The translations under genes and the position numbers were made by a program. The notes under the pieces were generated by a model. That model was not told the origin of the DNA, made no database searches, and saw nothing but the letters and a program-made list of their open reading frames with translations. A DNA stretch of 64,000 nt from an uncultured cyanobacterium (GTDB lineage Bacteria > Cyanobacteriota > Cyanobacteriia > Phormidesmidales > Phormidesmidaceae), in assembly GCA_963793265.1 (NCBI GenBank), contig CAWBZI010000001.1:736001-800000 (forward strand). The letters are read 5' to 3'. Shown piece by piece: positions 369-23,365 of this stretch (positions are counted from its first letter, which is position 1; the number at the start of each line of letters is the position of its first letter).

Positions 369-3026
369 CTAATCAACCACGGCTCTGAAGCGAATAAGGC
401 CGTACGAATTTGCCGGAACGCCTTCACCAGTTGCATTTGGAATATCGCTGAGGTCTATAACGATTGCGCCGTTGTCGTTGGGGCCACCGCAGTTGAGGGT
501 AACACCAGGGAAGGCGGTGCTGGGGTCTACGCCTGTAGGGAAGTAGTAGCCGCCGACGCCATCGTCATTACCGGGTGTGTCTGTGATTTCGTCGCCATCG
601 TTGACGTTGGTTAGGCCGATAGTAGCACCGTTGAAGTTGAGGAGAATGCCGCGATCACCCCCGCCTGTGAAAGGTGGTGTCAGATCGTTAAAGGCATCGG
701 TAACGAAGGTGGTGTTGGGGGGAATGCGATCGCAAACCAACACATCCTGCGCCGCCACATCACCATCTGATAAGAATGGAATCGTGTACTCAATCACATC
801 ACCAGGGGTCACTGTCGTACTGTTATCAGCACCATCTGCGAGCCCAGCGATAAAGCTCTCTACGGTACCGCCGCCAATCGTCGCCGCTGTTGGGGCCCCC
901 GGCCAGTTCACCGCATTATCCGCGTCATCAGGGGCACCCACATCAACGTAGCTATTGTCAAAAGACTGTTCATTCGCCAGCCCCCGATTAATCGCTGTAA
1001 TTCTCTTTACCAGCAGTAAATTAGGATCGCTTAGCGGTGGCCGGTAGCCAAAGTCAGCATCGTTAAAGTCAATCGAGCCGACTGCTAGCGCTACTGGCAG
1101 CGTTTCGGTTGCTGTAGTCAGCGTCAAATCGGTCAACACATTATTCGTATCAGTCACGTTGATGATGTAGTTGCCAAAAATTAGCTCATCAAAGTCGTAG
1201 CCACCATTCGCGTCTGTTGTTCGCGTTGCCAGCACTGGCTCGCCTGGATCAATCACACCATCGCCATCTAAGTCCCACACCAAGTCAATCGTGACGTTCT
1301 CAATGCCATCTTCACCAGCATCTTGCACACCATCGCCATTCGTGTCATTCCACACAAAGTCGCCAATGCTTGAGGCACCCCGCACACACTCTGCTGCATC
1401 AAAAGAACTATGTGCGCCTAAAGGCCCTACCGTATCTCTTCGAGTGCCCGCTACTTCATTCAAGTCGTTGCCCGATCGCTGCACCTGAAACACATCGTTT
1501 GCACCCAAGGCCCACAGTCTCCCCTGCCCATCCTTTGCAAGCTGCGAGTTCGTCCCAAACGTCTCGTTTAGATCGATAAAGTCGCCGTTGTTCAGGTCGT
1601 AGCTCCAAAAGAACTCGCCGCCGTTACCGTTCGCGGTGATCACGCCCGTATTGTCAATGATGAAGTCGCCCCAGTTTGGGGTATTTGTTAGCGTGCCGTT
1701 TTGTACCAGCCCGTCGATCCCAATCGGCGTCACGCTATCGATCGTTAGCCCGTTCGAGCCCGGCACAAAATCGACCTTGAAGATCTCGAACACGCCGCCA
1801 TCTGAAATATCTGAGCCCTGATACACAGAGCCATTGAAGAAAGCCGCACCACCGCTGGATATGCTCGTTGGCACCGTGCCGCTGTTTATGTAGCTGTTGA
1901 AGTTGTTATCGACAATTACATGCGTATCTGTCAATGGGCTCCAGGCATAAAGCGTATTGCCATCGCCGTAGTACACCTGTCGGTTCACATGGTCGGTCGA
2001 TAGTCCATTCGCGGTCGCTAGCGCGTTATCACTTAGCTGCAAAGAAGCCCCGCTTTCAACGTGCACTGCAAATATCCGAGCGTTCTGCCCCGAATACACT
2101 AAGTTGTAGTCCGCCTCGCACACATTACTGTCGCCAACTGGTGGGAGCGTTGTTGCTAAGGCAATGGGCACGTCTTGGGTAGCACTGGCTTCTTGCCGAT
2201 GCAGCGTAGCATCACCGTTGTTAGGATCGCCTGCGGCTTCTGTTTCTGTTGCAGTCGTTGCAGGCACGTCTACAGCATCACCATCCTGGTTGTCCTGCGT
2301 GTAAACATCGCTGTTGGTTGCCCCACCGCTATAGGCTTGATTGCCTCGATTTCCCGCAGGCGTATCACCCAGTACAACCGTGACCGTATCACCGTCTAAC
2401 AGTCCAGCATTTGCCTTTACCGGTACGCGTACAGTGACCGTGCCGTTCGGTGCAATAGAGCCTTCTGGCAAGCCCAAAGCAGCTCCGGTTGTGACACCGC
2501 CTGTCGGCACGTCTTCAGGTGTTGGCAGCGTTGTTTCACTATTGCCGTCAGTGTCGTAAGCGAGAATTTGAATAGGGCCGCTGAGAGAGCCGTTTGTAAT
2601 CGTGGCATTGTCAGGGATGAAAAACTGAGTAGGGTCGTTACCGATATTGGCGATTTTGAAGGTGAAATACACCACGTCTTCGGTGTTAATCGTGCCGTCG
2701 CCCTGATTTGGCCCTGCGCCAGTGACGCCGCCAGGGGCTTCTGTAGCGCCCGCAGGTGTCACCGTAATGCCCGCAACTTCTAGTACCGTGACTTCAACAA
2801 TATTGGACTCAATGAGTTGAGTGCCGGTAGACGGGTCGGTAAAGCTGCCAGTGGCCTGGTTTTGGATGACGCTGCCAGGGGCCGGGCTGTTGGTGACTGC
2901 GAGCACTAAAGCCGCAGGGAATAAGGCACTCCCGGTTGCTAATACCGACAGCAACACCCTCTGCCAGCCAGTGAGAGAACTCTGGTTATGGGCCGGGTTA
3001 GAAGCGAAAGAAGCGTGCTGAGTCAT
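369..3026 (-). CDS. Secreted DUF11-family protein: N-terminal donor-strand motif, probable beta-propeller, SdrD-B-like domain, C-terminal truncated DUF11
   Basis: Signal peptide, then PGSVIQNQATGSF..IESNIVEVTV. SdrD-B motif SIGDFVWNDTNGDGVQDAGEDGIENV. C-terminus LLLVKRIT..PGDVIEYTIPF..VCDRIP..YGLIRFRAVVD*. Confidence 0.85.
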   Translation of the reverse strand: MTQHASFASNPAHNQSSLTGWQRVLLSVLATGSALFPAALVLAVTNSPAPGSVIQNQATGSFTDPSTGTQLIESNIVEVTVLEVAGITVTPAGATEAPGGVTGAGPNQGDGTINTEDVVYFTFKIANIGNDPTQFFIPDNATITNGSLSGPIQILAYDTDGNSETTLPTPEDVPTGGVTTGAALGLPEGSIAPNGTVTVRVPVKANAGLLDGDTVTVVLGDTPAGNRGNQAYSGGATNSDVYTQDNQDGDAVDVPATTATETEAAGDPNNGDATLHRQEASATQDVPIALATTLPPVGDSNVCEADYNLVYSGQNARIFAVHVESGASLQLSDNALATANGLSTDHVNRQVYYGDGNTLYAWSPLTDTHVIVDNNFNSYINSGTVPTSISSGGAAFFNGSVYQGSDISDGGVFEIFKVDFVPGSNGLTIDSVTPIGIDGLVQNGTLTNTPNWGDFIIDNTGVITANGNGGEFFWSYDLNNGDFIDLNETFGTNSQLAKDGQGRLWALGANDVFQVQRSGNDLNEVAGTRRDTVGPLGAHSSFDAAECVRGASSIGDFVWNDTNGDGVQDAGEDGIENVTIDLVWDLDGDGVIDPGEPVLATRTTDANGGYDFDELIFGNYIINVTDTNNVLTDLTLTTATETLPVALAVGSIDFNDADFGYRPPLSDPNLLLVKRITAINRGLANEQSFDNSYVDVGAPDDADNAVNWPGAPTAATIGGGTVESFIAGLADGADNSTTVTPGDVIEYTIPFLSDGDVAAQDVLVCDRIPPNTTFVTDAFNDLTPPFTGGGDRGILLNFNGATIGLTNVNDGDEITDTPGNDDGVGGYYFPTGVDPSTAFPGVTLNCGGPNDNGAIVIDLSDIPNATGEGVPANSYGLIRFRAVVD

Positions 3027-3077: not shown

Positions 3078-5948
3078 CTACGGCGTGACGCGGGTCTTGA
3101 ACCGAAAGAAGCCGTAGGCGTCATTAGGAGTGCCGGGGCCTGTAGAACCAGGAAATTGAGTTAGGGTTGGCTCGCCCGTACCGCTTGCGCCTGTAAGATC
3201 GATAATGAGCGTGCCGTTGTCGTTAGGCTCTTGTAGGTTACAGGTAGCATCGACCGGGGCGGTGGCGGCGATCAGTTGAGTGCGATCGCTCCCATCATCC
3301 GCCGCCGTCAAGCCCAACACCGGGCTAGTCCCAAGCTGCAACTGCACGTCTACACCGGGGCCATAGGCATCTGTGACAAAAAGCTGATCGGGGAATAGGC
3401 GATCGCACAGCCGCACGTCAGTCACCGCCACCCCACCCGAATTCAAAAAGTAGACCGTATATTCAATCTCATCATTAGGCTGTACGCCGCCTGCATCAAC
3501 AGCACCGACGAGATAGTCAGCAGGCCAGTTAGGATGATTGTCATCAGCGGCCTGCGGCGAACCTGTGTCATCTTCAAACTGACTCAAGTCGGTGCCGTCA
3601 TTTGGATTTATCGCCGCACCATTGACAGCCGTAATTCGCTTAACCATCAAAACTTCTGCCGTCGCTGGTGTTATTACAAGCTGATAGTCTTCTACTTCGC
3701 CATCACTCGCAGCGCCTAGCGATCGCTCATCTACCTCAGCCGTATTTACATCGTCACTTAAGCTATCTGTTGTAAGTCTAAATCGCGCGTAGGTCGTGCC
3801 TCCCATAGCACTAACCGGGACGTCCCAGCTTAAGCTAGCGGTCGTATCACCTGAAGCGACGGTTGCACTTTGATACTCGCCTTCTTCAAACTCGCCGTTT
3901 TGGTCAAAGTCAATCCAGGCATGGAGGATTGCATCTGCCCCTGTCGTGTTGTTGATTGGAATGTTGTTTAGGGGGTATGAAGTGTTGGCGATCGCACCCG
4001 ACAAGCTCGCAAAAGCATCATCTACATCATCAGTTGCATCGCCATTGCTGTCGGTACCATTCCCAAAGCCATCGCTGTCATCTGTTACGCCACCGCCTAA
4101 AAAGAGAGTGCTATCAGTACCGTGCAAAGGCCCGCCGTCACTCGCTAGCGTACGGTAGTTACCAGCGCCACTACCTGCGCCTGTATCAGGCGCATCGCCA
4201 TAGTCCGCCGAGTCAATAATAACGACATCGCCTTCCTCTACCTCACTCGGCGTATATGTCCACAAGTCCAGCGTTTTAGTATCGCCAAAAGCGCCTGTAC
4301 ATTGTTCGTTTGTATTTCCACCGCTGGGTACACCAAATACGTTGAAGCTACCAGAGGAAGAATCAGCACCCGTGAACAGGTTAGTAGCTGGCGGATCAGG
4401 CGGATTAGTGCCACACAAAGCATCATCAGTCGGATCGCCATCGCCTGGATTGCGGTCTTCAACGAGCGTTCCATTCAGCGTAAAGTAGCCCCGATGATCG
4501 TAAAATGCAGTCGTGTTACCGAGTGGATTCGTGCTGTTCAATAGCGTGTAGGTGGGGCCGCCAAAAATATTGTTCTCAGCATCGCTCATCGGAAAGTGAT
4601 ACTCGCCGCCATGAATTTCTATACCGTACTCAAAGCTACCAACCGGGAAAGGTACGCTACTGTTGTCTTGACCATTCCAATCAACAGTTTGAGTACCAGA
4701 GCTGCTCATCACACCTCGTAACACTTTATTTTGAGAATTACCTGGATCAAAATCTACGCCATCTCGGCTAATAACAATTTGATAAACGCCGGGCAAATTA
4801 CTATCAAAAGAGAACGTACCGCCTGTGTTGACGGTAGACGTATTACCCACAACATCGCCCGTAAATGAAGAGTTGCTAGCAACAGGGAAAATAGGTATTG
4901 GTGAGAACCCTACGCCCTCTTCTACACCTGTGATCGGATTATAAACAGGCAAAAATGGTAAAACTGAACTGTCTATTTCATTGAAGAAGATAGGAAACTG
5001 CGGGGGCGCGCTGCTAGTGCCGCCGACCGGATTAGCAATATCGCCATTAGTACCCAGCACGTCGCGGTACAGTGGGGAGGCCCCATCACTATCCAAATTG
5101 CCAAGCTGGTTACCAAAGATCCTAAACCCAAAGGGATCTAGCCCACGCATATCAATTTCATAGCGATAGCCGTCTGCCGTTATCGGGTACAAGTCAGAGT
5201 GCAACTGCCTCCCGTTGTTCCCCATGTTGATGCTCATGAAAAAGGTATGCAGGCGACCTTCAAGATCATCAACAGAGTCGAGCGAGTTGCTGCGTACAGT
5301 CACATCCCAAGCTGATATGCCGGTTGTTTGGTTAGTACCTGTGTTGACCGCTTCAATGTTGCTTTGGATAGTGTTGGTATTAGTATTACTGTTGCTGCCA
5401 CTTGGGCCGTATATCGCTACGTAGTAGATACCTGTGGTCGGGGCCTTATAAAAGCAAGGCCGGTAGCCAGCCACATTGCCAGACCCGTTGATAGATTCTG
5501 GCCCGGCTAGCTCTTCAGCCCGGCTGCTAATAAAGCCCCGTCCGCTCTGGTCAGTGCAGGTAAAATCTGCGGTAGCGGGCAGACTCTCGTTTGCAGCAGT
5601 GCCGGTGACCCTATCAGGATCGAATATTTGAATATTGCCACTACCCACGCCCACGGTGGTAGAGCCTACCAAAATATGCTCCCCTTGCTCGGCATACACC
5701 CGGAATAAAGTGCGATTTTTGAATCCGGCTGAGGTGCCATTACGCCAAACAATATGGCCTCGGTTTCCAGGGGCACCGCTAGGGAACATATCGCGGCTAC
5801 CTTCTGCCTGGGCCGGTTGTATCCAGGCTCCCAAAGCGCACAGCGCAATGGATACGCTACTGGCGAGATAGCACCCTGCTCGCTGCTTAGATATTTCGAA
5901 TTGATCAGCTAAAAACATGGGGAGATCCGTTCGGATAATCGCAGCCAT
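3078..5948 (-). CDS. Secreted protein with large uncharacterised N-terminal domain, GEVED domain and C-terminal truncated DUF11 (candidate tip adhesin)
   Basis: AQA/EGSRD signal cleavage. DYGDAPD..AWIDFDQNG..YARFRL..DGEVEDY. C-terminus VKRIT..PNDEIEYTVYF..LCDRL..YGFFRFKTRVTP*. True start may be a later Met. Confidence 0.85.
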   Translation of the reverse strand: MAAIIRTDLPMFLADQFEISKQRAGCYLASSVSIALCALGAWIQPAQAEGSRDMFPSGAPGNRGHIVWRNGTSAGFKNRTLFRVYAEQGEHILVGSTTVGVGSGNIQIFDPDRVTGTAANESLPATADFTCTDQSGRGFISSRAEELAGPESINGSGNVAGYRPCFYKAPTTGIYYVAIYGPSGSNSNTNTNTIQSNIEAVNTGTNQTTGISAWDVTVRSNSLDSVDDLEGRLHTFFMSINMGNNGRQLHSDLYPITADGYRYEIDMRGLDPFGFRIFGNQLGNLDSDGASPLYRDVLGTNGDIANPVGGTSSAPPQFPIFFNEIDSSVLPFLPVYNPITGVEEGVGFSPIPIFPVASNSSFTGDVVGNTSTVNTGGTFSFDSNLPGVYQIVISRDGVDFDPGNSQNKVLRGVMSSSGTQTVDWNGQDNSSVPFPVGSFEYGIEIHGGEYHFPMSDAENNIFGGPTYTLLNSTNPLGNTTAFYDHRGYFTLNGTLVEDRNPGDGDPTDDALCGTNPPDPPATNLFTGADSSSGSFNVFGVPSGGNTNEQCTGAFGDTKTLDLWTYTPSEVEEGDVVIIDSADYGDAPDTGAGSGAGNYRTLASDGGPLHGTDSTLFLGGGVTDDSDGFGNGTDSNGDATDDVDDAFASLSGAIANTSYPLNNIPINNTTGADAILHAWIDFDQNGEFEEGEYQSATVASGDTTASLSWDVPVSAMGGTTYARFRLTTDSLSDDVNTAEVDERSLGAASDGEVEDYQLVITPATAEVLMVKRITAVNGAAINPNDGTDLSQFEDDTGSPQAADDNHPNWPADYLVGAVDAGGVQPNDEIEYTVYFLNSGGVAVTDVRLCDRLFPDQLFVTDAYGPGVDVQLQLGTSPVLGLTAADDGSDRTQLIAATAPVDATCNLQEPNDNGTLIIDLTGASGTGEPTLTQFPGSTGPGTPNDAYGFFRFKTRVTP

Positions 5949-6008
5949 TAGAGTGCCCGGTTAAATCAAAGAAAGTCGATTTGTGAAAGTGTCGAACCTT
6001 AAGAGTTG

Positions 6009-6047
6009 ACAAAACCCGGCAAAGTGAAAAACTCTGTCGGGTTTTGT
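6009..6047. terminator. Intergenic stem-loop within the DUF11 cluster
   Basis: ACAAAACCCGGCAAAGT-GAAAA-ACTCTGTCGGGTTTTGT, a 17-bp imperfect inverted repeat. Confidence 0.55.
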
Positions 6048-6098
6048 TGCTTTTTGTTTAGGCGATCGCGCCAGTCAAGGCTTCCGAATCAAGTCACT

Positions 6099-7932
6099 CT
6101 AGTCAACTTGAACCGTAAAGCGAATAAACCCATACGAACCCTCAGGCGTTCCAGGCGCAGTGGCATTCGGTAAGTCAGTCGGCACCGTCACATACACACC
6201 ACCGTCAGTATTAGTACCCTGACAAGGCGCAGCAGGTGTAACTGAGTTATCGAAGCTATAGCCCGCATCGTCACCAGTATCAGCATCCGTTAAGGCTGTA
6301 GGTGCAGCGGTACCCTGGCTAATTTGCAAAGAGCCTGCAACATAGGTCGTATTTTCAGGCACTAGGTCACAAAGCAGAACGCTTGCAGCCGTCGTGTTGC
6401 CGTCTGAAAGGAAGTAAATAGTGTAATCAATCTCTTCATTGGGCTCTGCTGCTGCTTCAATATCACCTTGCAGATAGCCACTAGGCCAGTTCACGCTAGC
6501 ATCATCGTCAGGATCAGCAGGATCGTCTACAACAGTTGCGATCGCATCTCCGCCCACACGGGTCACACGCTTCACCAGCTTCACCGCCGGAGCCGCACCT
6601 TCAATCGTAATCTGATAGTCTTCAACTTCACCGTTTGAAGCAGCATCGTCTGGTGTGAGCCCCGTATCAGAGCTATAGCGGAAGCGAGCGTAGGTTTCGC
6701 CTGCAACAGAAGAGAACGGCACTGTGCTCGTAATCGTCACCAAGTTGCCAGTCGGCGCTTCATCAGTCGCTACCTGCTCACCCGGATCGTCAAAATCACC
6801 GTCGCGGTTAAAGTCAATCCATGCGTTCAGCACACCTGTGCCCGCAGTGGTTACATCTAGCTCAAACGTCTCACCCGGCGCAAATGTCTCACCGTGTAGC
6901 GTCGTGCCCGCGCCGCCATCATCTAGCAGCACGCCATCATCTTCAGCCGGGCCATCGTCACCAGCCGTACTTTCAGCATCCACAACCGTCCCCAAGAAAG
7001 TCACGCCATCAACCACGTGGCTAGGTCCATCGGCCTGGCTCTGTTTGATAGTCACCTATACCAGTGGCAGGCGAAATATCAGGCGCATCACCGTAGTCAA
7101 GCTCAGGCTCACCCACGGGCACTGTCAAGGTATCGCTGGCTTCTCGCTCAGTGCTAGGCGATCCGTCAAGGTCACCATTTTCTGTTGCGGTGTTGTCTTG
7201 AGTAACCACATCGCCGTCAGCGCCATATTCACCGCCAGCCGTGAAAGGGACATTCTGATCAGCCGCAGAGGGTGTATTACCCAAAGCAACCGTGATTTCA
7301 TCCGTGCCCGGTACCAGGTCAGAAGCAGCCTTGATAGGAACGCGCACTTCAATAAAGCCATCAACCGGCAAAGAGCCACCGTTGGGCAGTGAGGCAAAGG
7401 TGCCTGACGACGCACCGGCAGCGGGAACAGTCTCGCTAACAGTGGTTGTAGTGGTGCCGTCGCTATAGGCAACAATCTCAATGGGATTGGCCGGATCAAA
7501 CGCACCGTTGTCAACGTCGGAAGGTGCGCCCGGAATGAAGATCTGAGTTTGGTCATTACCGATGTTCGTGATGCGGTAAGTGAAGTACACAACATCTTCT
7601 GAGCTGATGATGCCATCACCCTGGCTTGGGCCTGGATCGTTAACCGTGTTAGGCGCTTCTGATGCGCCTTGAGCGGTTACATCAATACCGGCCACTTCAG
7701 CAACGGTAATGGTAACTGTATTCGACTCAACTGGAATTGCAGTACCCGGATCGGCTGGGCTCTCAAACGAACCGTAGGCGGTGTTGTCAATTTCAGAGCC
7801 CGCAGCCGTGCCTTCAGCTAAAGCTGGCAGCATAAATGTGCTCAGCAAAACAGCGCCGACGAGAGAACGGAAATACTGTTGTTTTCGATTCTTTTTGAGC
7901 TTATTAGAGAGTTTATTAGAGGTAGATTTCAT
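6099..7932 (-). pseudogene. Frameshifted (or mis-sequenced) DUF11/GEVED subunit gene; ORFs 7021-8121 and 6099-7055 are the two halves of one ~610-aa protein
   Basis: ATG 7932 (MKSTSNK), signal peptide, donor motif GTAAGSEIDNTAYGSF..VESNTVTITV. The GEVED-domain start DYGDAPD..GDYQTEP continues as DGPSHVVDGVTFLG in another frame at ~7030-7040. The span is 1834 nt = 3n+1. Confidence 0.8.
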
Positions 7933-8086
7933 GGTGTTAGCGTCTGAGAAGGTTGTTAAGTGATTGAGCAAAAAGATCCACAGGAGGAGTGGAGGGCAAC
8001 AGCCTTGAGATTTGAAATTGAGAAGGCCAATAATTTCAAACGTCAAGGTTGTTGTATTGTTTGTTAGTTCGAGTAAGTCAACTGGT

Positions 8087-13954: not shown

Positions 13955-13974
13955 CTGTTTTTACTGAGACGGGT

Positions 13975-16900: not shown

Positions 16901-18471
16901 TCTGGGTCTTGATCAGCACCGATAAACTGACCGTCGCTCGTGCGCAGCGTGGCCACCGAATCCCAGCGAGAGATGTTGCCAATCTCATCGACGAGCTGGC
17001 CGCGAATCGTCGCCGTAGAGCGACCGTCAGAAGGAATCGACTGGGGAGAGAGCAACACCAGTTTTTCAGGCAAGCCTCGCACCGTCAGCGGCAAGCTTTG
17101 GAGAACGTCACCCGTTTCTGTTGAAATAACTTCTAGAACGTTCTCACCTGACACCAGGGGAACGCCGTACCAGGTTTGCGTACGAAGCTGAGTCACTGGG
17201 TCGGTTTCTGTTCTACCCACTAAGCTCGAATCAACCACATGGCCGTTCGTCAGCAGAGCGATATTTGCGCCAGTCGGGAAGCGCAGCACAACAGAAGTGG
17301 CCGGAATATCCAGGAAAGCGCCTGCTTCAGGGCTTAAAAACTCAATGTCACTGGCGTCTGCTGAGACGGCAATTTCATCACCAGTCGCTAAGTCAGCAGG
17401 CGTAATTGATATCTGTTGAATACCGTTAATATCGTAGCTAGCAACGCCCGGTGTGAACGTAGAGTCGATGATGGCAATATCGTCGCTATCAGCTTCTATC
17501 AGCTCGCGTGGCGTGAGCGAAATCCAGGCAGCGGGACGTTTAGCAGCCTCACGTCTTGGTAGGTTGACAGCGAGGCGAGGCGCGTTTGGATTCTCTTGTA
17601 TCTGGCCGTTGTCGTCCACCATGAGACGACGCGCTAGCCAGGGCGTTTTCTTTTCGTCATCGTCTTCAGCCTCTAGGCCAAGCGCAATCCGAAGCTCATC
17701 CCGTTTTTCTTCCGCTTCGTCTGTCGCTTCAGGCGCGAGGGCAATTTGAGGCGCGAGAGTTTGTAGAGGTGCGATCGCTTCTACAGCTTCCGTTTCAATT
17801 GACGTCTCAAAACCCGGCAGTGTCGTTGCTAACCATGGAGTTTTCTTTTGCTCAGCCTGCGGGGCTTCAGGCGTAGCGATCGCAATCAAAGGCGCAATCG
17901 TATTAAAGTCTTGCTTCTCTGGGGGGGGGGCGATCACGATCAAAGGCGATTCCTTAAGTAAAAGCGCCTGATTTTCTGTTTCTTCCTCTTCCTCTTCTTC
18001 AATCCCTTCCTCAGGAGAGAGAGATAATAGTGCTGGTTCAGTGTTTGCTGCTGTGAGGTCTACTGTAGGCTCATTGCTGGCTTCTGAAGAATCTACAGCA
18101 ATGAGGGGGAAGTCGTTTTGAGCAGATTGAGCGATCACACTCTCTTCTGCAAACGCTTGGGCCAGCAAAGGAGCCGTCGGTTCATAATTATCGGCAACCA
18201 CCGTCTCCGACTCAATCCAGGGAACATCCCACTGTACCGCGCGAGTTTTTAGCTCAACGCCAGGCGCGATCGCCTCTAAAGACTCAGCCTCATCAACAGG
18301 ATCTATCGGGGTGTCTAACCCCTGTACGGCCTCAGCAGATTGAGCATTAGCAGCGCTAGGCAGCAGCCCCAAACTCGCTAGCACACTTACAGCAAGCCCA
18401 GACTTCAGACCAGCAGGACAGTTTGAGAGCAGTCTAAAGAGCAACAGTTTATCTTTTGAAGTTTTAGACAT
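13975..18471 (-). CDS. Large secreted protein, predicted outer-membrane beta-barrel with periplasmic Ig-like domains and an acidic N-terminal linker
   Basis: Signal peptide (AANA/Q). Invasin-like Ig motif SIPSDGRSTATIRGQLVD. The C-terminal ~900 aa are rich in alternating aromatic/Gly amphipathic strands (e.g. LYGKYALR, RATYRLGYRWD, YSLEGGYY, FYFGMTAK). Confidence 0.75.
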   Translation of the reverse strand: MSKTSKDKLLLFRLLSNCPAGLKSGLAVSVLASLGLLPSAANAQSAEAVQGLDTPIDPVDEAESLEAIAPGVELKTRAVQWDVPWIESETVVADNYEPTAPLLAQAFAEESVIAQSAQNDFPLIAVDSSEASNEPTVDLTAANTEPALLSLSPEEGIEEEEEEETENQALLLKESPLIVIAPPPEKQDFNTIAPLIAIATPEAPQAEQKKTPWLATTLPGFETSIETEAVEAIAPLQTLAPQIALAPEATDEAEEKRDELRIALGLEAEDDDEKKTPWLARRLMVDDNGQIQENPNAPRLAVNLPRREAAKRPAAWISLTPRELIEADSDDIAIIDSTFTPGVASYDINGIQQISITPADLATGDEIAVSADASDIEFLSPEAGAFLDIPATSVVLRFPTGANIALLTNGHVVDSSLVGRTETDPVTQLRTQTWYGVPLVSGENVLEVISTETGDVLQSLPLTVRGLPEKLVLLSPQSIPSDGRSTATIRGQLVDEIGNISRWDSVATLRTSDGQFIGADQDPDMPGYQVEIRRGEFAAELQSSLESHLVQIQANANGFDAFSQVQFETPQRPSLISGVIDIRVGARGTDFYDSFRDFLPEDGDNSYEFDVDAAVFATGNLGEWLYTGAYNSDRTLNENCRGETTLFRSGTGSDCSSYTTYGDDSYTDTLAPSLDSVYLRLERNSPSNDRAIDYAMWGDFSTSEFATSSQLFTATSRQLHGFKSNYNFGNLAVTGLYANNVEGFQRDTIVPDGTSGFYFTSERNLLPGSENVYIELEELERPGTVLERKPLYRGADYEIDYDRGTILFNDPVTRTAVDDYGLLLVRRIVATYQHEDGDDTDILAGRLQYNLNQQQGVESWVGASYFTEDQGTRDFTLYGADARIALGQNAQVIAEIAQSSSDFSGTDEVNGTGYRISFDGSLGTALSGRAYYRSTDAGFTNTATTSFVPGQTRYGAQVTGRLGRNTSLRARYDHEDNTGNAPRVITDVSDLLLGLNTEPGAPLDNSLTTYSIGLSQRLGRATAEIDWLHRDRTDRINSDRSISSDQLRTRLTTPITRKLSLVAQNELNLSSNVDPIYPSRTLIGLNWEVMPWLNISANQVFYGGGGNSRGNATSIDVTGDHTFASDTTIRGRFSTVDGRQIGGTIGLEQGINLAPGLDLDLGYEKVFSTLGNETAASTQFAQPFATGNRAAALGLAGGESYSVGLSYTDNPDFQASTRFEHRSSNRGTSNTVFTLSALGRVTPSITLLGDYRAARAANQRITGLGTTSILKLGMAYRNPKDDRFNGLLRYEHRMNPNSIPTNSLSGTNSETQDHVFSAEGIYAPNWRWELYGKYALRHSRSSLNVSDNSFSSGSTVQLAQARATYRLGYRWDTVGEVRWIGGSGFNETGYSLEGGYYPLPDLRVSAGYSGGANDTDFGENRSAGGFYFGMTAKLSGLLNGFGTQPAAPVQQEESVIQVSQESGDESVQADSSTTSAATSSETSSAMPTNETYPTATDL
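17921..17930. repeat. G10 homopolymer (C10 on the coding strand) inside the barrel gene
   Basis: ctct-gggggggggg-cgat, encoding A-P-P-P. Confidence 0.9.
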
Positions 18472-18473
18472 GA

Positions 18474-19976
18474 TTAGTTTTGCTCCTCCTGGAAAGTGGG
18501 CGTTACCCCAAAGTTCATGCGCACGAGCCCGCCGGGAGCAAGATTAACCAGTCGAGAATGACTGTTGCGTTCGTTAAAGCGAAGGTTTGGGGCGAGCGTG
18601 TAGCCCGGTAAGCTACTCAGATCAATAGTGCCGGTACGCTGTCCAGGCAGCATTTTTTGAACAGAATAAAGGCCGTCCGCATCAGTAACCACTCGGTTAC
18701 CGTCATCTAAGAATATGACCGCGTTTGGAATACCCGCCTCACCCGGCTGCTGCTCGCCATCAAAGTTTTTATCTTCAAAAACGCGACCGATGAGCGTACC
18801 GCAGTCAGAGAGAATACCAGGGTCAAGCGTTAGTTGATGAGAGCTTGGCCCGTCTTGAACCCTAAAGCCGCTATCTGTTCTTTCGGCAGTAACCTCAGCG
18901 CTGTTACGGCCCGACCCTCTTAGCGCATCTGGCGTCAGCCGCACACCGTAGATAATATCTAGCGTACGATCAGCAGGCAGCACATCAGGCACCCTAAAGC
19001 TTACTGTTCGATTATTGATATCAGCAACAACCGGAACAACATCACCGTCTACTTGGCCCGTCACTGACTCTGGCAACAGCTCGAAACCAAGCGGTAGCGT
19101 ATCTACTGCAACAATTGAATCGATACCAGCTCTAGCCAAGTTTTGAATATTTAACCGATAGAGAACAATATCTCCAGGCTGAGCCGCAGAGCGGTCGGCT
19201 GATTTGGTGATTCTGACCTGCTCAGATTCGCAAATAACAGAGCTTAAACCAAATTCAAAGAAGGTTAAGAACTGAACGGCTGCGTTGCGAACTTCAACCC
19301 GGCGCGTGAGTTCGGTAGCACCATCAACTGAGATAGGCTGACCGTCTAAAGATGTCGCTCGGTAGCTAAGTGTTGCTGTATTATTTGCAGTATCTTCTGC
19401 AATGCCTTGCAGTTCAATTCGAATACGTCTCTCGCCAAAAGAAGAGTCATCTGGTGGATTGATAACCAGGATATATTGAGCACCTGCGTCGGTCTGGCTT
19501 AGCCCAGCGTTAATTGGGCTAGTGAGCTGAACAGACGAATCGAATAAGAAATTGTAACGACCTTCATTCGGTAAGAAGGGAAAGGGATTAACGTTGCTCT
19601 CGTTGGGTGGAATGCTGTCGGTACCGCTAGTAGGCGTAAGAGATACCAAATTTCCTAAATCTAAACCGCTAGCATCGGGTTCGTAGAGCGCACTCGAAAA
19701 GCCAACATAGCTAGGAAGCGGTTCGCCATTGCAGCCTAAAAGATCGCCGCCTGGGTCGATTAATACTGGGTCTAGGCCAGTGATAATTTGGTTAGAGGTA
19801 ATGCCAACGGGGCCGTTGCCAGTGGTGTAGGTAGCCGTCGCTTCGTTAAGAATATCAGGTAGCTGCGCGTAGGCACCGGTGATTGGGTGGCTCAAGAGGC
19901 CAACTAAAACGAGGGCCATCAAACGCTGCCAGCGGCGGGAGCGTCGAAACCATTTAGGTGTGGAAAAAATTGGCAT
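18474..19976 (-). CDS. Secreted protein: N-terminal donor-strand motif, complete DUF11, C-terminal SdrD-B/Cna-B-like domain (candidate base subunit)
   Basis: AYA/QLPDILNEATATY..ITSNQI. ITKSADRSAAQPGDIVLYRL..VDTLP..GRNSAEV. GRVFEDKNFDGEQQPGEAGIPNAVI..TDADGLYS. Ends 2 nt before the barrel ATG. Confidence 0.85.
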   Translation of the reverse strand: MPIFSTPKWFRRSRRWQRLMALVLVGLLSHPITGAYAQLPDILNEATATYTTGNGPVGITSNQIITGLDPVLIDPGGDLLGCNGEPLPSYVGFSSALYEPDASGLDLGNLVSLTPTSGTDSIPPNESNVNPFPFLPNEGRYNFLFDSSVQLTSPINAGLSQTDAGAQYILVINPPDDSSFGERRIRIELQGIAEDTANNTATLSYRATSLDGQPISVDGATELTRRVEVRNAAVQFLTFFEFGLSSVICESEQVRITKSADRSAAQPGDIVLYRLNIQNLARAGIDSIVAVDTLPLGFELLPESVTGQVDGDVVPVVADINNRTVSFRVPDVLPADRTLDIIYGVRLTPDALRGSGRNSAEVTAERTDSGFRVQDGPSSHQLTLDPGILSDCGTLIGRVFEDKNFDGEQQPGEAGIPNAVIFLDDGNRVVTDADGLYSVQKMLPGQRTGTIDLSSLPGYTLAPNLRFNERNSHSRLVNLAPGGLVRMNFGVTPTFQEEQN

Positions 19977-20170: not shown

Positions 20171-20185
20171 ATTCATCTACCGTGA

Positions 20186-20749
20186 CTACTTAACCGTCAC
20201 TTCATGAGAAACGTTAACAGCAACAGAGCTACCCAGCGCTTCGTTAAAGTTCCATTTCACGTGAGTGTAAGCAGAAGCAGGCGCAGGCTGCATCTCAACA
20301 GTGCCATCAGGCAAAGTAACTTCGACCATAGGCTCAGCTACAAAAGTCGCACCACCGTCGATGCTGTAAGTCGCATCAGCCGCAGTATTACCCTTCTCAG
20401 AACCAATGACATAAGTCATCGCAGCAGGAATAGGCTGAGTAATCACGAGATTTTCAGCAGGCAGTTCGCCAGCGTTAGAAGAAACGACCGCGTAGCGTAG
20501 CTTATCACCAGGCTGTACAGCCGCTTCGCCCTCTAGCTTTTGCCATTCAGCTTTCTCGGTACCGTCAGCATCGACGACAGTCATCTCTTTTTCAACGCCC
20601 ATTTCGAGCTTTACTTCAGGGCGAGTGAGGCGCTGTGCGATCGCCGCGCCCGCTTCTTGAATGCTCGCAAACACAGGTGTGCTCACTGCAAAAGGCGCAG
20701 AGGCCACCAAAGCTGCAACACCCAAACCAAACATGAACTTACGTTTCAT
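20186..20749 (-). CDS. Small secreted single truncated-DUF11 protein
   Basis: Signal peptide, then VQPGDKLRYAVVSSNAG..ENLVITQPIP..TYV..YSIDGG..YTHVKW..VNVSHEVTVK*. Confidence 0.85.
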   Translation of the reverse strand: MKRKFMFGLGVAALVASAPFAVSTPVFASIQEAGAAIAQRLTRPEVKLEMGVEKEMTVVDADGTEKAEWQKLEGEAAVQPGDKLRYAVVSSNAGELPAENLVITQPIPAAMTYVIGSEKGNTAADATYSIDGGATFVAEPMVEVTLPDGTVEMQPAPASAYTHVKWNFNEALGSSVAVNVSHEVTVK

Positions 20750-20854: not shown

Positions 20855-20869
20855 AGCTCATATCATCGA

Positions 20870-23365
20870 TTAGTTAACAGAACGACGAATAACGAAGGTA
20901 CCCGATGCGCCCGGTGCAACAGAAGGCACTTCGTTTTCATACTTCTCAGCAGGCGTGCCATCAACAGGATCGGTTGGGCTAGTTGCCGCAGGCGTAGTAT
21001 CAGCGCTGGTTGAGAAGTAGCGGATTTCGCCGTTATCAGCCGTCGCACCAGAGCGGTGGCTAGTAAACTCAGCCCAGTTGTTAGTCCCTGCGTTACCGTC
21101 CTCAAGAATTAGGAAGTCGTTAGCGGTGAGCGTAACGCTGCCTGCACCTGTTGCAGACTGAGAGATGTTCTGGTAAGTGAGACGGTACTCAATGGTTTCA
21201 CCCGGCGCAGCATTTGCAGTAGGTGTTGCAGTGAATGCTTCGCGAACAGAGCCATCAGCAGCCAGAATTTGAGCTTCCTTCATCAGCATCATGAAGCCGG
21301 TGTATACGCGGTCGATGGTGATGTTGTTAGTTGTCTCACCTGTGTAGCCAGGCGATACGACAGGATCGTCGTCAGGGAAGGCAACGATAGGAATCGCGAC
21401 GTCTTCTAGCTGAGTAACGCCGTCGGGCAGGTCTACTTCAACGGTGTAGTCAACAGAATTACCTGCGGCGACATCGCCAACGTTAACAGGCGCATCAGGC
21501 GTTGTGAACGTTGTACCGTCGTAAGTGTATACGGCGGTGTTAGTGCCATCGCTGATAGTAACAATTGTGCCGACAGGAATATCGCCATCAACACCATACG
21601 CACCAGGCTGACCACCCGCAGCTTCAGCTTCAGTAGGCGACAGTGGCTCGATAGTGGTTTCAGCAATAAAGCCAATGCCAGCAGGGTTACTCACCGTGTT
21701 GTTGAAGGTAACCGCATCAGGGTCAAACGGCGTGGCAGGGTCTAAACCAGCCGGAACAGGTGTAGACAAGTTGGTGAAGTCGTCGTTGTCGTTGGTTGGG
21801 CCAATGGCATTAGGCGCACCGTCTGGGCCAGTAAGAATATCGTCAGTCGTTGGCGTAATCGAAACAACGTTGAGTTCACCGTCGTCGCCTGTACCTGAGT
21901 TGTCGTTGTTGTTGTCAACCAGGCTTGGATCATCAGGCTGGTTGTCGCCGTCGCCATCAGTTTCAGGTGCAATACCGTCATCTGTGCCAGGTACGTAATC
22001 GCTACCGTCAGCGGCAGGAGGATTACCTGCGTCGTCGTAGTTGTTAGGATTGGCGTCACCTGATTCATCGTAGATAATCTGAGGGTCAGGATCGGTGTCG
22101 CCAGCGGTTTGACCAAAGACCTGTGCGATGTTTTCGATGGTACCGCCCGTTTCAGGCAAGCCGCTGGTAACCACTGTGAAGGTTAGACCAGTGACCGTAG
22201 AGCCTACGTTGAGCGTACCAGCATTAACAAAACCAATGCGAGTAACTGTGCTCAAGTCAGTAGGCTGCGCAGTTTGCCATGCAAGCGTTAGCGGGTCAGA
22301 CCCTGCGTCCGCACCAGCCGGATCAACAGAATAGACAGGCGACCAACCATTAGGCAGGTTACTGCCTACAGAAGATAGGGTTGTCTGTGCTGGAATAGCA
22401 TCAGAAACCAGAATGCGATTCGCTGTAGCACCGTCTAGGGTAATGTCAGTGCCATCAAGTGCGGCTGCATTGAAGAGGCCAGCAGGGTCTAAATCTTCTA
22501 CACGCACGCCTAAGTCATAGGCGATAGTGTCATCGGTCGGATCGGCAGGAACACCAGCGTTAGCAATGCTAGACGTTTTGAGAACAGTCGCCAAAGCGAG
22601 GGCGTCGTCAGAACCGGCAAAGATAAGAGAGCTGTTGTCTTGTGCCTCACGCTCACCGTTTTCAGGTGCTTCAGGGCCAACATTCTCAGTGCGAACATCG
22701 TCAAGATTAGCGCCGCCGTCATCGTTATCTGACTGGTTTTGCTCTTCATCGACGCCTTCAACCGTGGGGTTGTCGGTGGTGTTACCTAGCTCGACTACTA
22801 TCAAATCGCCTGCAACAGTGCCAGCAGCAGGCGTACCTGTCACTCTTACTCTAAAGCTTTCATCTGGGTCGATTGGATCTCCACCCAAGCCAACAATAGT
22901 ACCGCCTTCTGCAGGAACCGTCCCAATCAAGACACCGTCTGAGTCAAAGACTTGTACAGGGTCAGTATCAGAAGGTGTGAAGTTGTCAGTTCTAATATTG
23001 TCAATGCCAGGAACGAAGACATCGGTTACTGCATTACCAATGTTAGTCACTTCAAAGTCATAAAAGAGGGTATCACCCGCTTCGACCGCGCCGCCATCTT
23101 CATCAATAGGAGGCTGAGCGCTTACGGTCAAGCCTGCAATTTCAGCAACTTTGATGACCACTGTATTAGAAGTGGTATCGAAGTCATTACCGTTACCGTC
23201 GTTGTAGGTCGCGGTTGCGGTGTTGCTGATGTCCGTTCCGGCATCAGTGCCTTCCGCCACAACAGCGCCGACCATATTGAACACGCCAGCAACTGCTAGA
23301 GTAGCAGCGAGAAGAGGCTTGTGAGCCTGCCAGCGAAATTTTTTCTGTTGTACTGTTTTTGCCAT
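20870..23365 (-). CDS. Secreted multi-Ig/DUF11 protein, 831 aa, with both donor motif and C-terminal truncated DUF11 (candidate major fibre subunit)
   Basis: ATG 23365 (MAKTVQQ), AVVA/EGTDAGTDISNTATATY..TSNTVVIKV. C-terminus LMKEAQ..APGETIEYRLTYQN..ILEDG..VAPGASGTFVIRRSVN*. First gene of the cluster. Confidence 0.85.
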   Translation of the reverse strand: MAKTVQQKKFRWQAHKPLLAATLAVAGVFNMVGAVVAEGTDAGTDISNTATATYNDGNGNDFDTTSNTVVIKVAEIAGLTVSAQPPIDEDGGAVEAGDTLFYDFEVTNIGNAVTDVFVPGIDNIRTDNFTPSDTDPVQVFDSDGVLIGTVPAEGGTIVGLGGDPIDPDESFRVRVTGTPAAGTVAGDLIVVELGNTTDNPTVEGVDEEQNQSDNDDGGANLDDVRTENVGPEAPENGEREAQDNSSLIFAGSDDALALATVLKTSSIANAGVPADPTDDTIAYDLGVRVEDLDPAGLFNAAALDGTDITLDGATANRILVSDAIPAQTTLSSVGSNLPNGWSPVYSVDPAGADAGSDPLTLAWQTAQPTDLSTVTRIGFVNAGTLNVGSTVTGLTFTVVTSGLPETGGTIENIAQVFGQTAGDTDPDPQIIYDESGDANPNNYDDAGNPPAADGSDYVPGTDDGIAPETDGDGDNQPDDPSLVDNNNDNSGTGDDGELNVVSITPTTDDILTGPDGAPNAIGPTNDNDDFTNLSTPVPAGLDPATPFDPDAVTFNNTVSNPAGIGFIAETTIEPLSPTEAEAAGGQPGAYGVDGDIPVGTIVTISDGTNTAVYTYDGTTFTTPDAPVNVGDVAAGNSVDYTVEVDLPDGVTQLEDVAIPIVAFPDDDPVVSPGYTGETTNNITIDRVYTGFMMLMKEAQILAADGSVREAFTATPTANAAPGETIEYRLTYQNISQSATGAGSVTLTANDFLILEDGNAGTNNWAEFTSHRSGATADNGEIRYFSTSADTTPAATSPTDPVDGTPAEKYENEVPSVAPGASGTFVIRRSVN

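What the first reader, a model, noticed from the sequence alone, without database searches (positions are those of the whole stretch)
369..23365. Candidate new fibre system: split-DUF11 donor-strand polymer with possible intermolecular isopeptide bonds and a dedicated OM barrel
Seen: complete DUF11 domains in this cluster read K...PGD-x-x-x-Y...D-x-(L/I)P...(F/Y)-x-V...G-x-x-x-N-(S/T)-A (e.g. internal domains of the 1204-aa and 500-aa proteins). Six proteins END with a DUF11 that stops just before the N-x-A strand (..RFRAVVD*, ..RFKTRVTP*, ..RFTVQVD*, ..RFRVTVD*, ..SHEVTVK*, ..VIRRSVN*). Four BEGIN, after the signal peptide, with exactly the missing two strands (GSVIQNQATGSF..ESNIV, GSEIDNTAYGSF..ESNTV, DILNEATATY..TSNQI, GTDISNTATATY..TSNTV). 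This gives three classes: donor+acceptor (831, 885, ~610 aa), acceptor-only (1204, 956, 187 aa) and donor-only (500 aa). Known: CnaA/CnaB-type Ig domains form spontaneous Lys-Asn bonds catalysed by a nearby Asp/Glu, split versions react in trans (SpyTag/SnoopTag principle), and donor-strand complementation builds chaperone-usher pili and archaeal threads. Inference: head-to-tail, sortase-independent covalent polymerisation into a base-shaft-tip fibre exported through the co-encoded barrel. I do not recognise this as a characterised cyanobacterial appendage.
Basis: partly seen in the sequence, partly recalled or inferred. Interest (0 to 1): 0.93.

Follow-up and report, generated by a model that had tools for sequence, protein, structure and literature searches.

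The report
Split-domain snap-together surface fibre cluster
Nine neighbouring genes of a cyanobacterium encode secreted proteins whose last domain lacks two strands that other proteins of the cluster carry at their start, so they probably plug together, and perhaps lock chemically, into a surface stalk or fibre rooted at a very large outer-membrane barrel.

Summary
Six proteins end in a truncated DUF11/CLIPPER (CnaA-like) domain and four begin, after a signal peptide, with the missing two strands. The main acceptor type always sits at the C-terminus: 82 of 82 and 111 of 111 full matches end 0-5 residues before the stop. The bond-forming residues are split between termini: acceptor Lys 195/198 and Asp 197/198, donor Asn 46/46. 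A complex model docks the p885 N-terminal hairpin onto the Lys and Asp strands of the p1204 acceptor: score 0.89, best of 3 controls 0.00; the mark was reached by 116 of 157 solved complexes and 2 of 215 mismatched pairs. The cluster order (stalk, 187-aa protein, base, barrel, acceptor protein) recurs in 12 of 12 fetched loci. In a 301-genome sample of the phylum, all 37 genomes with the acceptor also hold the barrel. Covalent bonding, fibre length, subunit order and export through the barrel remain inferred. The frameshift in the ~610-aa gene is missing from contigs of three public runs. My eight searches found no paper on this system. This scan has noted the same kind of operon eight times on other DNA.

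The parts
20870..23365 (-). p863/p831 stalk protein. It has a signal peptide, an N-terminal donor hairpin (about nt 23138-23239), a D1 domain and a central DUF7925 (CnaA-like). Its C-terminal domain ends ..FVIRRSVN.
   Evidence: Pfam DUF7925, 199.6 bits. Homologues align from Met33. The donor I-x-N-x-A is conserved. The C-terminal K and EDG are conserved in 12 rows.
20186..20749 (-). p187, a small secreted single DUF11-like domain that ends at the same strand as the acceptors and lacks the full Lys/acid set.
   Evidence: TIGR01451, 34.7 bits. K+QPIP in 10 of 12 and H+DDLP in 2 of 12. It lies between p863 and p500 in 11 of 12 loci.
18474..19976 (-). p500 base protein, donor-only. It has an N-terminal I-L-N-E-A-T-A-T-Y donor (about nt 19779-19859), a middle domain, one complete DUF11 and a C-terminal SdrD_B-like domain.
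   Evidence: Pfam DUF11 25.0 bits, SdrD_B 28.9 bits. Family alignment. Its gene overlaps the barrel gene by 4 nt in 10 of 12 loci. It is fused to the barrel in G016.
13975..18471 (-). p1498 giant outer-membrane protein. The N-terminal ~370 aa are variable and acidic. Two Ig-like domains follow, then a barrel region of about 28-30 long antiparallel strands.
   Evidence: No Pfam or NCBIfam hit. AF2 strands and pLDDT. Foldseek best matches are LptD, MtrB, TonB-dependent receptors and SlpA, all with low TM-scores. Atlas neighbours are named TonB-dependent receptor or OMP. Found in 44 of 301 phylum genomes.
11810..13954 (-). p714, a secreted right-handed beta-helix protein with a C-terminal OmpA-like peptidoglycan-binding domain.
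   Evidence: Pfam OmpA 52.3 bits, Beta_helix 44 bits. A homologue lies next to the barrel in L002, L009 and L011. An OmpA-like part is fused to the barrel in L004 and L010.
8087..11701 (-). p1204 tip or cargo protein, acceptor-only. It has a ~500-aa head shared with p956, one complete DUF11, a propeller-like region and a C-terminal acceptor domain (nt 8090-8602; K1039, C1113-D1114, ends RFRVTVD).
   Evidence: Acceptor alone folds with pLDDT 92.3. Complex model.
6099..7932 (-). p610 adaptor with donor and acceptor. It reads as two frames in the window because of one extra base at 7029. The donor lies at about nt 7702-7803, followed by a GEVED domain and a C-terminal acceptor ending RFTVQVD.
   Evidence: One base is left out at 7029 in contigs of 3 runs from 2 studies. 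That gives a single 610-aa frame.
3078..5948 (-). p956 tip or cargo protein, acceptor-only. It has the same head family as p1204, a GEVED domain and a C-terminal acceptor (nt 3081-3656) ending RFKTRVTP.
369..3026 (-). p885 adaptor or shaft protein with donor and acceptor. The donor hairpin is residues 51-82 (nt 2781-2876; N56 invariant). D1, a middle region and an SdrD_B domain follow, then the C-terminal acceptor (nt 372-1022; K674, D766).
   Evidence: Complex model: donor residues 54-65 and 69-82 contact the acceptor.

Best explanation
The cluster encodes a surface assembly built on a naturally split CLIPPER/DUF11 (CnaA-like) domain. Tip or cargo proteins (p1204, p956, and one more on contig C2) and adaptors (p885, p610) end in a 'catcher'. 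This is a domain with the first-strand Lys and the catalytic Asp that stops right after the F-x-F-x-V strand. Adaptors, the conserved stalk protein p863 and the base protein p500 begin, just after signal-peptide cleavage, with a two-strand 'tag' (I-x-N-x-A ... S-N-x-V-x-V). After Sec export, the tag of one protein inserts into the catcher of the previous one as a two-strand donor complementation. The Asn then probably forms a spontaneous Lys-Asn isopeptide bond helped by the Asp. The result is a head-to-tail chain: tip, then zero or more adaptors, then stalk, then base. The logic matches chaperone-usher pili: an adhesin without a donor, adaptors with both, and a terminator without an acceptor. 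The base p500 sits at or in the ~28-30-stranded barrel p1498, and p714 ties the barrel to peptidoglycan. Shown by sequence or model: the split, its conservation, the docking model and the gene linkage. Inferred: the covalent bond, the subunit order, the chain length, the route across the outer membrane, and a possible chaperone-like role of p187.
For: (1) Strict C-terminal position of the acceptor: 82 of 82 full matches among the best 150 of 2003 hits and 111 of 111 in 79 named cyanobacterial loci end 0-5 aa before the stop. No internal, unsplit copy of this domain type was seen.
(2) The triad is split. Lys is present in 195/198 and Asp in 197/198 distinct acceptors. The donor Asn and Ile are each present in 46/46 distinct donors.
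(3) Complex model of p1204 residues 1025-1204 with p885 residues 46-290: ipSAE 0.90/0.89/0.89, best of 3 controls 0.00. The mark was reached by 116 of 157 solved complexes and 2 of 215 mismatched pairs, which holds only roughly here because my own alignments were used. The runs agree in at least 91% of contacts, and partner pLDDT is at least 81. Donor residues 54-65 pair with the C1113-D1114 strand and residues 69-82 with the K1039 strand, although the donor's own next domain was present in the chain.
(4) The acceptor alone aligns with CnaA-type isopeptide domains, and the model ends before their Asn. RrgB 2x9z: model 9..180 on residues 187..307, with Lys193 and Asn318. Cnm 7lgr: model 10..180 on 172..282, with Lys177 and Asn291 (residue numbers from PMC12617251 Table 1).
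(5) Acceptor-only and donor-only proteins cannot self-complete, so completion must be in trans.
(6) Linkage. All 37 acceptor-positive genomes of 301 are among the 44 barrel-positive ones, and 29 of 30 donor-positive ones are too. Gene order is conserved in 12 of 12 loci. The barrel lies within 10 kb in 48 of 79 loci.
(7) The p500 and barrel genes overlap by 4 nt in 10 of 12 loci. In G016 they are fused in one 2745-aa frame that starts with a donor motif.
(8) No other conserved gene family lies in the 13 clusters, and no sortase, transglutaminase or PapD-like chaperone was found.
Against: The tools return no coordinates, so the Lys-Asn-Asp distances were never measured. In the listed lowest-error contacts K1039 touches donor residues 74, 75 and 77, not N56. 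AF2 folds the acceptor alone with pLDDT 92.3, so the predictor does not flag it as unstable. Donor peptides alone hit no Pfam DUF11 model and map to the last strands of a local DUF11 profile only weakly or not at all (p863 donor E 0.054; the p885 donor mapped elsewhere). The pairs p863 N-terminus, p500 N-terminus, p863 C-terminus and p187 were not modelled, so subunit order and any homopolymer are untested. Most loci show no p885-type subunit (60 of 79, partly because flanks were limited to 10 kb). The barrel model is poor overall (pLDDT 58.4, TM 0.13-0.27 to known barrels) and resembles no usher. The large heads and the propeller-like region of the tips may not fit through a barrel when folded. 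The genome counts come from related genomes and are not independent.
Confidence: 0.62

Rival explanations
1. The plug-in architecture is the same but non-covalent. The two-strand donor completes the fold as in chaperone-usher pili, and the conserved Lys, Asp and Asn serve only packing or hydrogen bonding.
For: No bond geometry could be measured. p187 keeps the acceptor shape without a full catalytic set. BsaA oligomers with the Asn mutated still resist SDS until heated (PMC11580942, passage). Some DUF11 domains lack the bond (PMC12617251, passage).
Against: Lys 195/198, Asp 197/198 and Asn 46/46 are far more conserved than their neighbours. They sit at the positions of the proven CLIPPER triad by motif, and for the Lys also by structural alignment.
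Confidence: 0.2
2. The product is a short covalent mounting system rather than a fibre. Each cargo protein with the C-terminal catcher is fixed once onto a stalk (p863) that is fixed onto the barrel-bound base (p500). The extra adaptors in this genome only lengthen the stalk by one or two units.
For: Most clusters hold one acceptor protein and no p885-type subunit. The N-terminal parts in front of the catcher are very diverse among the 82 proteins. One catcher protein of this genome is encoded away from the cluster. The base is fused or translationally coupled to the barrel.
Against: p863 has both a donor and an acceptor-like C-terminus with conserved K and EDG, so it could polymerise. p885-type proteins with matching ends exist in 19 of 79 loci. 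No pairing was tested beyond one pair.
Confidence: 0.35
3. These are ordinary fibrillar adhesins. The C-terminal domain is a complete fold that serves as a sorting signal for the barrel. The N-terminal hairpin belongs to its own first domain, or closes the protein on itself.
For: The acceptor folds alone with high confidence. C-terminal sorting domains with Ig-like folds are known in other secretion systems (recalled: type IX CTD; not tested here).
Against: The complex model puts the hairpin on the foreign acceptor although its own D1 was in the chain: 0.89 against 0.00 for the best of 3 controls, a mark reached by 116 of 157 solved complexes and 2 of 215 mismatched pairs. Acceptor-only and donor-only proteins exist in every cluster. 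The model ends about 10 residues before the Asn strand of CnaA-type domains. The residue the acceptor lacks (Asn) is invariant in the donors.
Confidence: 0.07

Closest known systems
Chaperone-usher pili (type 1 / P pili: FimH-FimG-FimF-FimA-FimI, PapH; FimC/FimD)
   Same: Subunits are Sec-exported Ig-like proteins with an incomplete fold that the N-terminal extension of the next subunit completes. The tip adhesin lacks a donor, adaptors have both, and a terminator lacks an acceptor. There is a dedicated outer-membrane barrel. (Knowledge of the Fim/Pap logic is recalled; the matching architecture here is.)
   Different: The donor has two strands, not one. The fold is CnaA/CLIPPER, not the pilin fold. 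A Lys/Asp/Asn set for a covalent lock is present. No PapD-like chaperone or usher family was detected. The barrel is about 28-30 strands with Ig-like N-domains.
CLIPPER / DUF11 (PF01345) intramolecular isopeptide domain, PDB 9IFR (PMC12617251; passages read)
   Same: Same domain superfamily. It has the K ... D-x-(L/I)-P ... N-x-A motifs and a CnaA-like fold. The acceptor model aligns to 9ifr with Z 6.7, rmsd 2.3 A over 90 residues.
   Different: In CLIPPER the three residues lie in one domain and the bond is intramolecular. Here the Asn strand and the last strand are on another polypeptide's N-terminus. The survey describes no split form in the passages I read.
BsaA biofilm fibres of Clostridium perfringens, 'donor strand exchange and lock' (PMC11580942; abstract and passages)
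   Same: An N-terminal strand bearing an Asn inserts into the neighbour's sheet and is locked to a Lys with help of an acidic residue. No sortase is needed.
   Different: BsaA belongs to the TasA family, is a single-domain homopolymer of a Gram-positive cell, and depends on SipW and type IV pilus genes. Here the domain is CLIPPER, the proteins are multi-domain hetero-subunits, the cell is diderm, and there is a dedicated barrel.
Archaeal thread filaments of Sulfolobus acidocaldarius (PMC9715654; title and start of abstract only)
   Same: Donor strand complementation combined with isopeptide bonds between subunits.
   Different: The threads are archaeal, with no outer membrane or barrel, and form a homopolymer of a small subunit. 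Homology was not tested here.
Sortase-assembled Gram-positive pili (RrgB, SpaD, BcpA, PilA/PilB of S. sanguinis)
   Same: They give the best structural matches to the acceptor domain: Z 7.0-7.7, in the CnaA-type middle domains that carry Lys-Asn bonds. The fibres are covalent.
   Different: Their inter-subunit bond is made by a sortase at an LPXTG motif. Here there is no LPXTG and no sortase, and the inter-subunit link would be the domain's own autocatalytic bond.
SpyTag/SpyCatcher and related engineered split isopeptide domains (PMC6539128; search listing only)
   Same: A peptide tag carrying one reactive residue completes a truncated domain carrying the other two and reacts spontaneously.
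   Different: Those were made in the laboratory from CnaB-type domains. This would be a natural, conserved split of a CnaA-type domain used for assembly.

Membership tests
CLIPPER / DUF11 (PF01345), CnaA-like isopeptide domain | Match to the family profile over the whole domain, above the curated cut-off | tested here: not met
   For the C-terminal acceptors the p1204 C-terminus scores 20.5 bits (cut-off 24.6) and covers only profile positions 10-53 of 114. The short TIGR01451 core repeat is met (34.2, 33.0 and 82.1 bits against 24). The internal domains of p1204 (72.9 bits) and p500 (25.0 bits) do meet the cut-off.
CLIPPER / DUF11 (PF01345), CnaA-like isopeptide domain | CnaA-like Ig fold | tested here: met
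   The AF2 model of the acceptor has pLDDT 92.3. VIA-align gives Z 6.7 to 9ifr and Z 7.0-7.7 to CnaA-type pilin domains. Z under 8 is middling by the tool's own note.
CLIPPER / DUF11 (PF01345), CnaA-like isopeptide domain | Lys, Asp and Asn of the bond within one domain of one chain | tested here: not met
   Lys and Asp are present (195/198 and 197/198). The chain ends about 10 residues before the aligned Asn of RrgB and Cnm. The Asn is found on the donors (46/46).
CLIPPER / DUF11 (PF01345), CnaA-like isopeptide domain | Isopeptide bond actually formed | not testable with these tools
   This needs mass spectrometry or a structure. The models gave no coordinates.
Chaperone-usher pili | PapD-like periplasmic chaperone gene | tested here: not met
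   No such Pfam or NCBIfam family appears in any of the ten cluster proteins. No further conserved gene family lies in the 13 clusters.
Chaperone-usher pili | Usher-family outer-membrane protein | tested here: inconclusive
   p1498 hits no Pfam or NCBIfam family. Foldseek's listed matches are LptD, MtrB, TonB-dependent receptors and SlpA, from a low-confidence model. A family that is not listed is not excluded.
Chaperone-usher pili | Incomplete subunit fold completed by the N-terminal extension of the next subunit | tested here: met
   Met by prediction only. Complex model 0.89 against 0.00 for the best of 3 controls, a mark reached by 116 of 157 solved complexes and 2 of 215 mismatched pairs; donor residues 54-65 and 69-82 lie on the acceptor strands.
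Sortase-dependent pili | C-terminal LPXTG-type sorting signal and a sortase gene | tested here: not met
   The C-termini end at ..RFRVTVD and the like, with no LPXTG or membrane anchor. No sortase family appears in the cluster or in the rest of the window.
TasA/BsaA donor-strand-exchange fibres | TasA-family subunit with SipW-type signal peptidase | tested here: not met
   No TasA/camelysin or SipW family appears among the cluster proteins.
Type V pili (Bacteroidia) | Lipoprotein subunits, donor strands at the C-terminus, protease-triggered exchange | tested here: not met
   The signal peptides are followed by A-x-A-type sites without a lipobox Cys, and the donors are N-terminal. The definition of the family is recalled.

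The most novel reading that the evidence does not exclude
This is a class of bacterial surface fibre not found in print by these searches, present across the Cyanobacteria. By earlier notes of this scan, which I did not check, it also occurs in other two-membrane bacteria. It works as a natural Tag/Catcher kit. Any secreted protein that ends in the truncated CLIPPER 'catcher' becomes covalently mounted, without a sortase or a dedicated crosslinking enzyme, on the N-terminal two-strand 'tag' of a stalk subunit. The chain ends on a base subunit that is part of a ~28-30-stranded outer-membrane barrel. The small protein p187 is a catalytically dead catcher that holds tags in the periplasm until assembly, a chaperone working in the reverse sense of PapD.
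Probability: 0.4. Interest if true: 0.9.

Novelty: new variant of a known kind. Interest (0 to 1): 0.84.

Why it matters
If true, diderm bacteria have a covalent, sortase-free way to build or mount surface structures, using machinery unrelated by sequence to the known pilus classes. It would explain a conserved, unannotated gene cluster found in many cyanobacteria: 44 of 301 sampled genomes of the phylum hold the barrel, and titles of related loci include Gloeobacterales, Nostocales, Oscillatoriales and Picosynechococcus. That bears on adhesion, aggregation, mat and bloom formation. It would also give natural, already co-evolved Tag/Catcher pairs of a CnaA-type domain for protein engineering. 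The prediction is directly testable: mix two recombinant pieces and look for a boil-resistant adduct.

Tried and rejected
- Sequence search of the PDB with the acceptor, the internal DUF11 and a giant DUF11-repeat protein gave nothing useful. I could therefore not align 9IFR by sequence, and its residue numbering (18..109) stays ambiguous. I rely on RrgB and Cnm instead.
- Donor peptides against Pfam gave no DUF11 hit. A local DUF11 profile placed the p863 donor on the Asn strand only at E 0.054 and misplaced the p885 donor.
- The Atlas look-up of the tip head (p1204 residues 30-525) returned only unnamed clusters.
- RNA evidence: no RNA holder is listed for window 5000-14900, so nothing can be said on expression.
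- A search for further conserved genes in the 13 clusters found only antisense shadow frames of the known genes.
- The cyanobacterial tubular (CT) pilus of Microcystis (PMC12397347, passages) has a different pilin and gene set. I rejected it as the same system.
- The grappling-hook DUF11 filament of Litorilinea (bioRxiv 10.1101/2025.08.19.671072, passages) is one giant unsplit protein. I rejected it too.
- A DUF11 signal peptide tested in Synechococcus PCC 11901 (PMC13297417, passages) says nothing on assembly.
- Literature searches that found no description of a split DUF11/CLIPPER assembly. Supplements were not opened. Subscription journals are outside the library.
- One search failed on a mistyped reference, and I repeated it without that item.
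- The model files are not readable from scripts, so no atom distances were obtained.


Full report
ANATOMY

Window 369-23461 holds nine genes, all on the minus strand. In order of transcription they are:
- p863 (831 aa from Met33, the start that homologues support)
- p187
- p500
- p1498
- p714
- p1204
- a gene read as two frames, p366 + p318
- p956
- p885

Pfam and NCBIfam give:
- DUF7925 in p863 (199.6 bits).
- Complete DUF11 domains inside p1204 (72.9 bits) and p500 (25.0 bits).
- SdrD_B domains in p885 and p500.
- GEVED domains in p956 and p318.
- A right-handed beta-helix plus an OmpA-like domain in p714.
- Nothing for p1498 or p366.
- The short TIGR01451 core of DUF11 near the C-terminus of p885, p318, p1204 and p187, and below its cut-off in p956.

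The rest of the window is housekeeping (cytochrome f, PRPP synthetase, argininosuccinate synthase and others). It holds no sortase, usher or PapD-like gene.

Aligned with the complete internal DUF11 domains, the C-terminal domains keep three elements. These are the first-strand Lys (L-V-K-R-I-T), the P-G-D-E-x-E-Y strand and the C-D-R-I-P strand. They stop at the F-x-F-x-V strand, which in a complete domain precedes G-x-I-x-N-x-A and the last strand. The four N-termini carry those two strands just behind A-x-A-type signal-peptide sites.

The two-frame gene is probably not broken in nature. Contigs of three public runs from two studies lack one base at 7029. Without that base the frames join into one open frame of 610 aa from its Met.

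IT IS NOT CHANCE, AND IT IS A FAMILY TRAIT

A HMMER search of 1.84 billion representatives with the p1204 acceptor (residues 1025-1204) gave 2003 hits at E<=0.001. Among the best 150:
- 82 proteins match the whole domain. In all 82 it ends 0-5 residues from the C-terminus, 67 of them exactly at the end.
- The other hits are giant DUF11-repeat proteins that match only the core.
- The parts in front of the domain are very diverse.

A scan of one genome per species found 604 relatives. The best 79 loci are all cyanobacterial by title, except two 'uncultured bacterium' records, and include Gloeobacterales. They hold 111 full acceptor domains, and all 111 end 0-5 residues before the stop. I saw no internal, unsplit copy of this domain type.

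The residues that make the bond in CLIPPER domains are Lys 715, Asp 748 and Asn 806 in PDB 9IFR (PMC12617251, passages). Here they are divided between the two ends:
- Lys in 195 of 198 and Asp in 197 of 198 distinct acceptors.
- Asn in 46 of 46 distinct donors.

In the window's own genome the acceptor profile finds five full-length domains, all C-terminal. Four lie in this cluster and one on contig C2. The donor profiles find only this cluster's N-termini.

STRUCTURE PREDICTIONS

The acceptor alone folds confidently: pLDDT 92.3, pTM 0.88, from 39 aligned rows. Its best structural matches are the CnaA-type, Lys-Asn-bonded middle domains of Gram-positive pilins (Z 7.0-7.7) and the CLIPPER crystal structure 9ifr (Z 6.7, rmsd 2.3 A, 90 residues). 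By the tool's own note, Z under 8 is middling.

The aligned ranges are informative:
- Model 9..180 lies on RrgB 187..307, whose bond is Lys193-Asn318.
- Model 10..180 lies on Cnm 172..282, whose bond is Lys177-Asn291.
The bond residues are from Table 1 of PMC12617251. If the first strand is ungapped, model residue 15 (K1039) falls on the bonded Lys. In both cases the model ends about ten residues before the bonded Asn. So the fold is a CnaA-type domain without its Asn strand and last strand.

The complex job paired p1204 residues 1025-1204 with p885 residues 46-290, so the donor's own next domain was included.
- Scores were 0.90, 0.89 and 0.89, against 0.00 for the best of three controls.
- The mark was reached by 116 of 157 solved complexes and 2 of 215 mismatched pairs. 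This holds only roughly here because I supplied the alignments.
- The runs agree in at least 91% of contacts, and partner pLDDT is at least 81.
- Donor residues 54-65 lie against the strand with C1113-D1114, and residues 69-82 against the strand with K1039.
- The pass may partly reflect the model's memory of complete DUF11 domains. That is the point of the hypothesis, but it is not proof of binding.
- No coordinates are given, so the Lys-Asn distance is unknown.

GENE LINKAGE

In a sample of 301 genomes of the phylum:
- The barrel is found in 44.
- The acceptor is found in 37, all among those 44.
- The donor plus D1 domain is found in 30, of which 29 are among the 44.
These genomes are kin, so the counts are not independent.

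Of the seven barrel-positive genomes without an acceptor hit, the three I looked at (G264, G016, G130) have divergent proteins near the barrel. They end in ..AIRFRVRIP..VNFRVKVD and ..VRFRVQIN.

Twelve loci from twelve genomes show the same order. It runs p863-like (11 of 12), p187-like (11 of 12), p500-like, barrel, sometimes p714, then one or more proteins ending ..SYGFIRFRARVK. Source names place two of these loci in Gloeotrichia echinulata and Picosynechococcus sp. PCC 7003.

Further points on linkage:
- The p500 and barrel genes overlap by 4 nt in 10 of 12 loci.
- In G016 they form a single 2745-aa frame that begins with a donor motif.
- An OmpA-like part is fused to the barrel in two loci.
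- No other gene family is conserved in the clusters.

THE BARREL

The AF2 model of p1498 residues 370-1460 is poor overall (pLDDT 58.4). It has two Ig-like domains at about 80 and some 28-30 long antiparallel strands at 70-88. Foldseek's best matches are LptD, MtrB, TonB-dependent receptors and Deinococcus SlpA, with TM-scores of only 0.13-0.27. Atlas neighbours are named TonB-dependent receptor or outer membrane protein. It is a very large outer-membrane barrel of no recognised family. Whether it exports the subunits or only roots the base is open.

WHAT DOES NOT FIT THE SIMPLE POLYMER PICTURE

- p885-type subunits, with donor and main-type acceptor together, occur in the window, in L006 and in 19 of 79 further loci. 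In those 19 the count is partly limited by the 10-kb flanks.
- Most clusters have only p863 and p500 as donors and one tip as the main acceptor. They may build a three-part stalk unless p863 polymerises through its own C-terminal domain. That domain keeps a Lys and an EDG motif in 12 of 12 rows.
- p187 has the acceptor shape but never the full catalytic set: K with Q in 10 of 12, H with D in 2 of 12. I read it, at low confidence, as a non-covalent partner of the donor tags, perhaps a periplasmic holder.

COMPARISON WITH KNOWN SYSTEMS

- The logic is that of chaperone-usher pili, but no part is homologous to theirs.
- The chemistry would be that of CLIPPER and Gram-positive pilin domains, but between chains.
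- Donor strand plus isopeptide lock is known from BsaA of C. perfringens (N35, K74, E56; PMC11580942) and from archaeal threads (PMC9715654, listing only). Those use other folds and lack an outer membrane.
- Eight searches of the paper library found no description of a split DUF11/CLIPPER assembly. The survey that defined CLIPPER and DUF7925 treats the bonds as intramolecular in the passages I read.
- This scan has eight earlier notes of the same kind of operon on other genomes. I saw them only after forming my reading, and they are unchecked AI notes.

VERDICT

- Completion in trans is well supported.
- A covalent lock is likely.
- Fibre length, subunit order and the barrel's role are open.
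- I file it as a new variant of the known kind 'donor-strand-complemented, isopeptide-locked filaments', with machinery unrelated by sequence to any described pilus class.

Noticed in passing
window 7029 (within 6099-8121, minus strand): The window has one base more here than contigs of three public runs from two studies. Without it the 366-aa and 318-aa frames form one 610-aa gene. It is probably an assembly error or a strain difference, not a pseudogene.
   Followed up: yes
G000:C2:366138-369191 (+), locus L096 6139-9192: A fifth acceptor-ended protein (1017 aa, ends ..YGFVRFWVRVD) is encoded far from the cluster. It is 68% identical to p885 over its last ~590 residues, but its first ~430 residues differ and the donor profiles do not match it.
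   Followed up: partly
L092 12371 to L093 704 (G016:C1, about 972370-980604): In a genome of another class of the phylum, the p500-like base and the barrel are one 2745-aa frame starting with a donor motif. It is flanked by a p187-like gene, an 1116-aa protein with both donor and acceptor, and an 829-aa protein ending ..VNFRVKVD.
   Followed up: partly
L004 7787-13213 and L010 8213-13084: In Picosynechococcus sp. PCC 7003 and a relative, the barrel protein (1808 and 1623 aa) carries an OmpA-like part matching the C-terminus of p714. The peptidoglycan anchor can therefore be fused to the barrel.
   Followed up: no
window 8090-8602 (p1204 residues C1113 and C1161): Two cysteines of the acceptor domain are nearly invariant: C1113 in 197 of 198 sequences, and C1161 invariant in the 9-row alignment A1. 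One sits next to the catalytic Asp. They may form a disulphide.
   Followed up: no
window 13975-18471 (p1498 residues 1-370): The first ~370 residues of the barrel protein are acidic and low in complexity (runs of E, repeated 'KKTPWLA' motifs). They are not conserved in homologues, whose matches start at about residue 320-375.
   Followed up: no
window 23947-25539 (-): A GAF plus HisKA protein lies directly upstream of the cluster on the same strand. Whether it regulates the cluster was not examined.
   Followed up: no
window 61440-63998 (+), runs off the window: A large protein with DUF4347 and four C-type lectin domains (Pfam Lectin_C, 203 bits). This is an unusual domain for a cyanobacterium.
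   Followed up: no
window 56591-58078 (+): A protein combining a Ser/Thr protein kinase domain with a VanY-type D-Ala-D-Ala carboxypeptidase domain.
   Followed up: no
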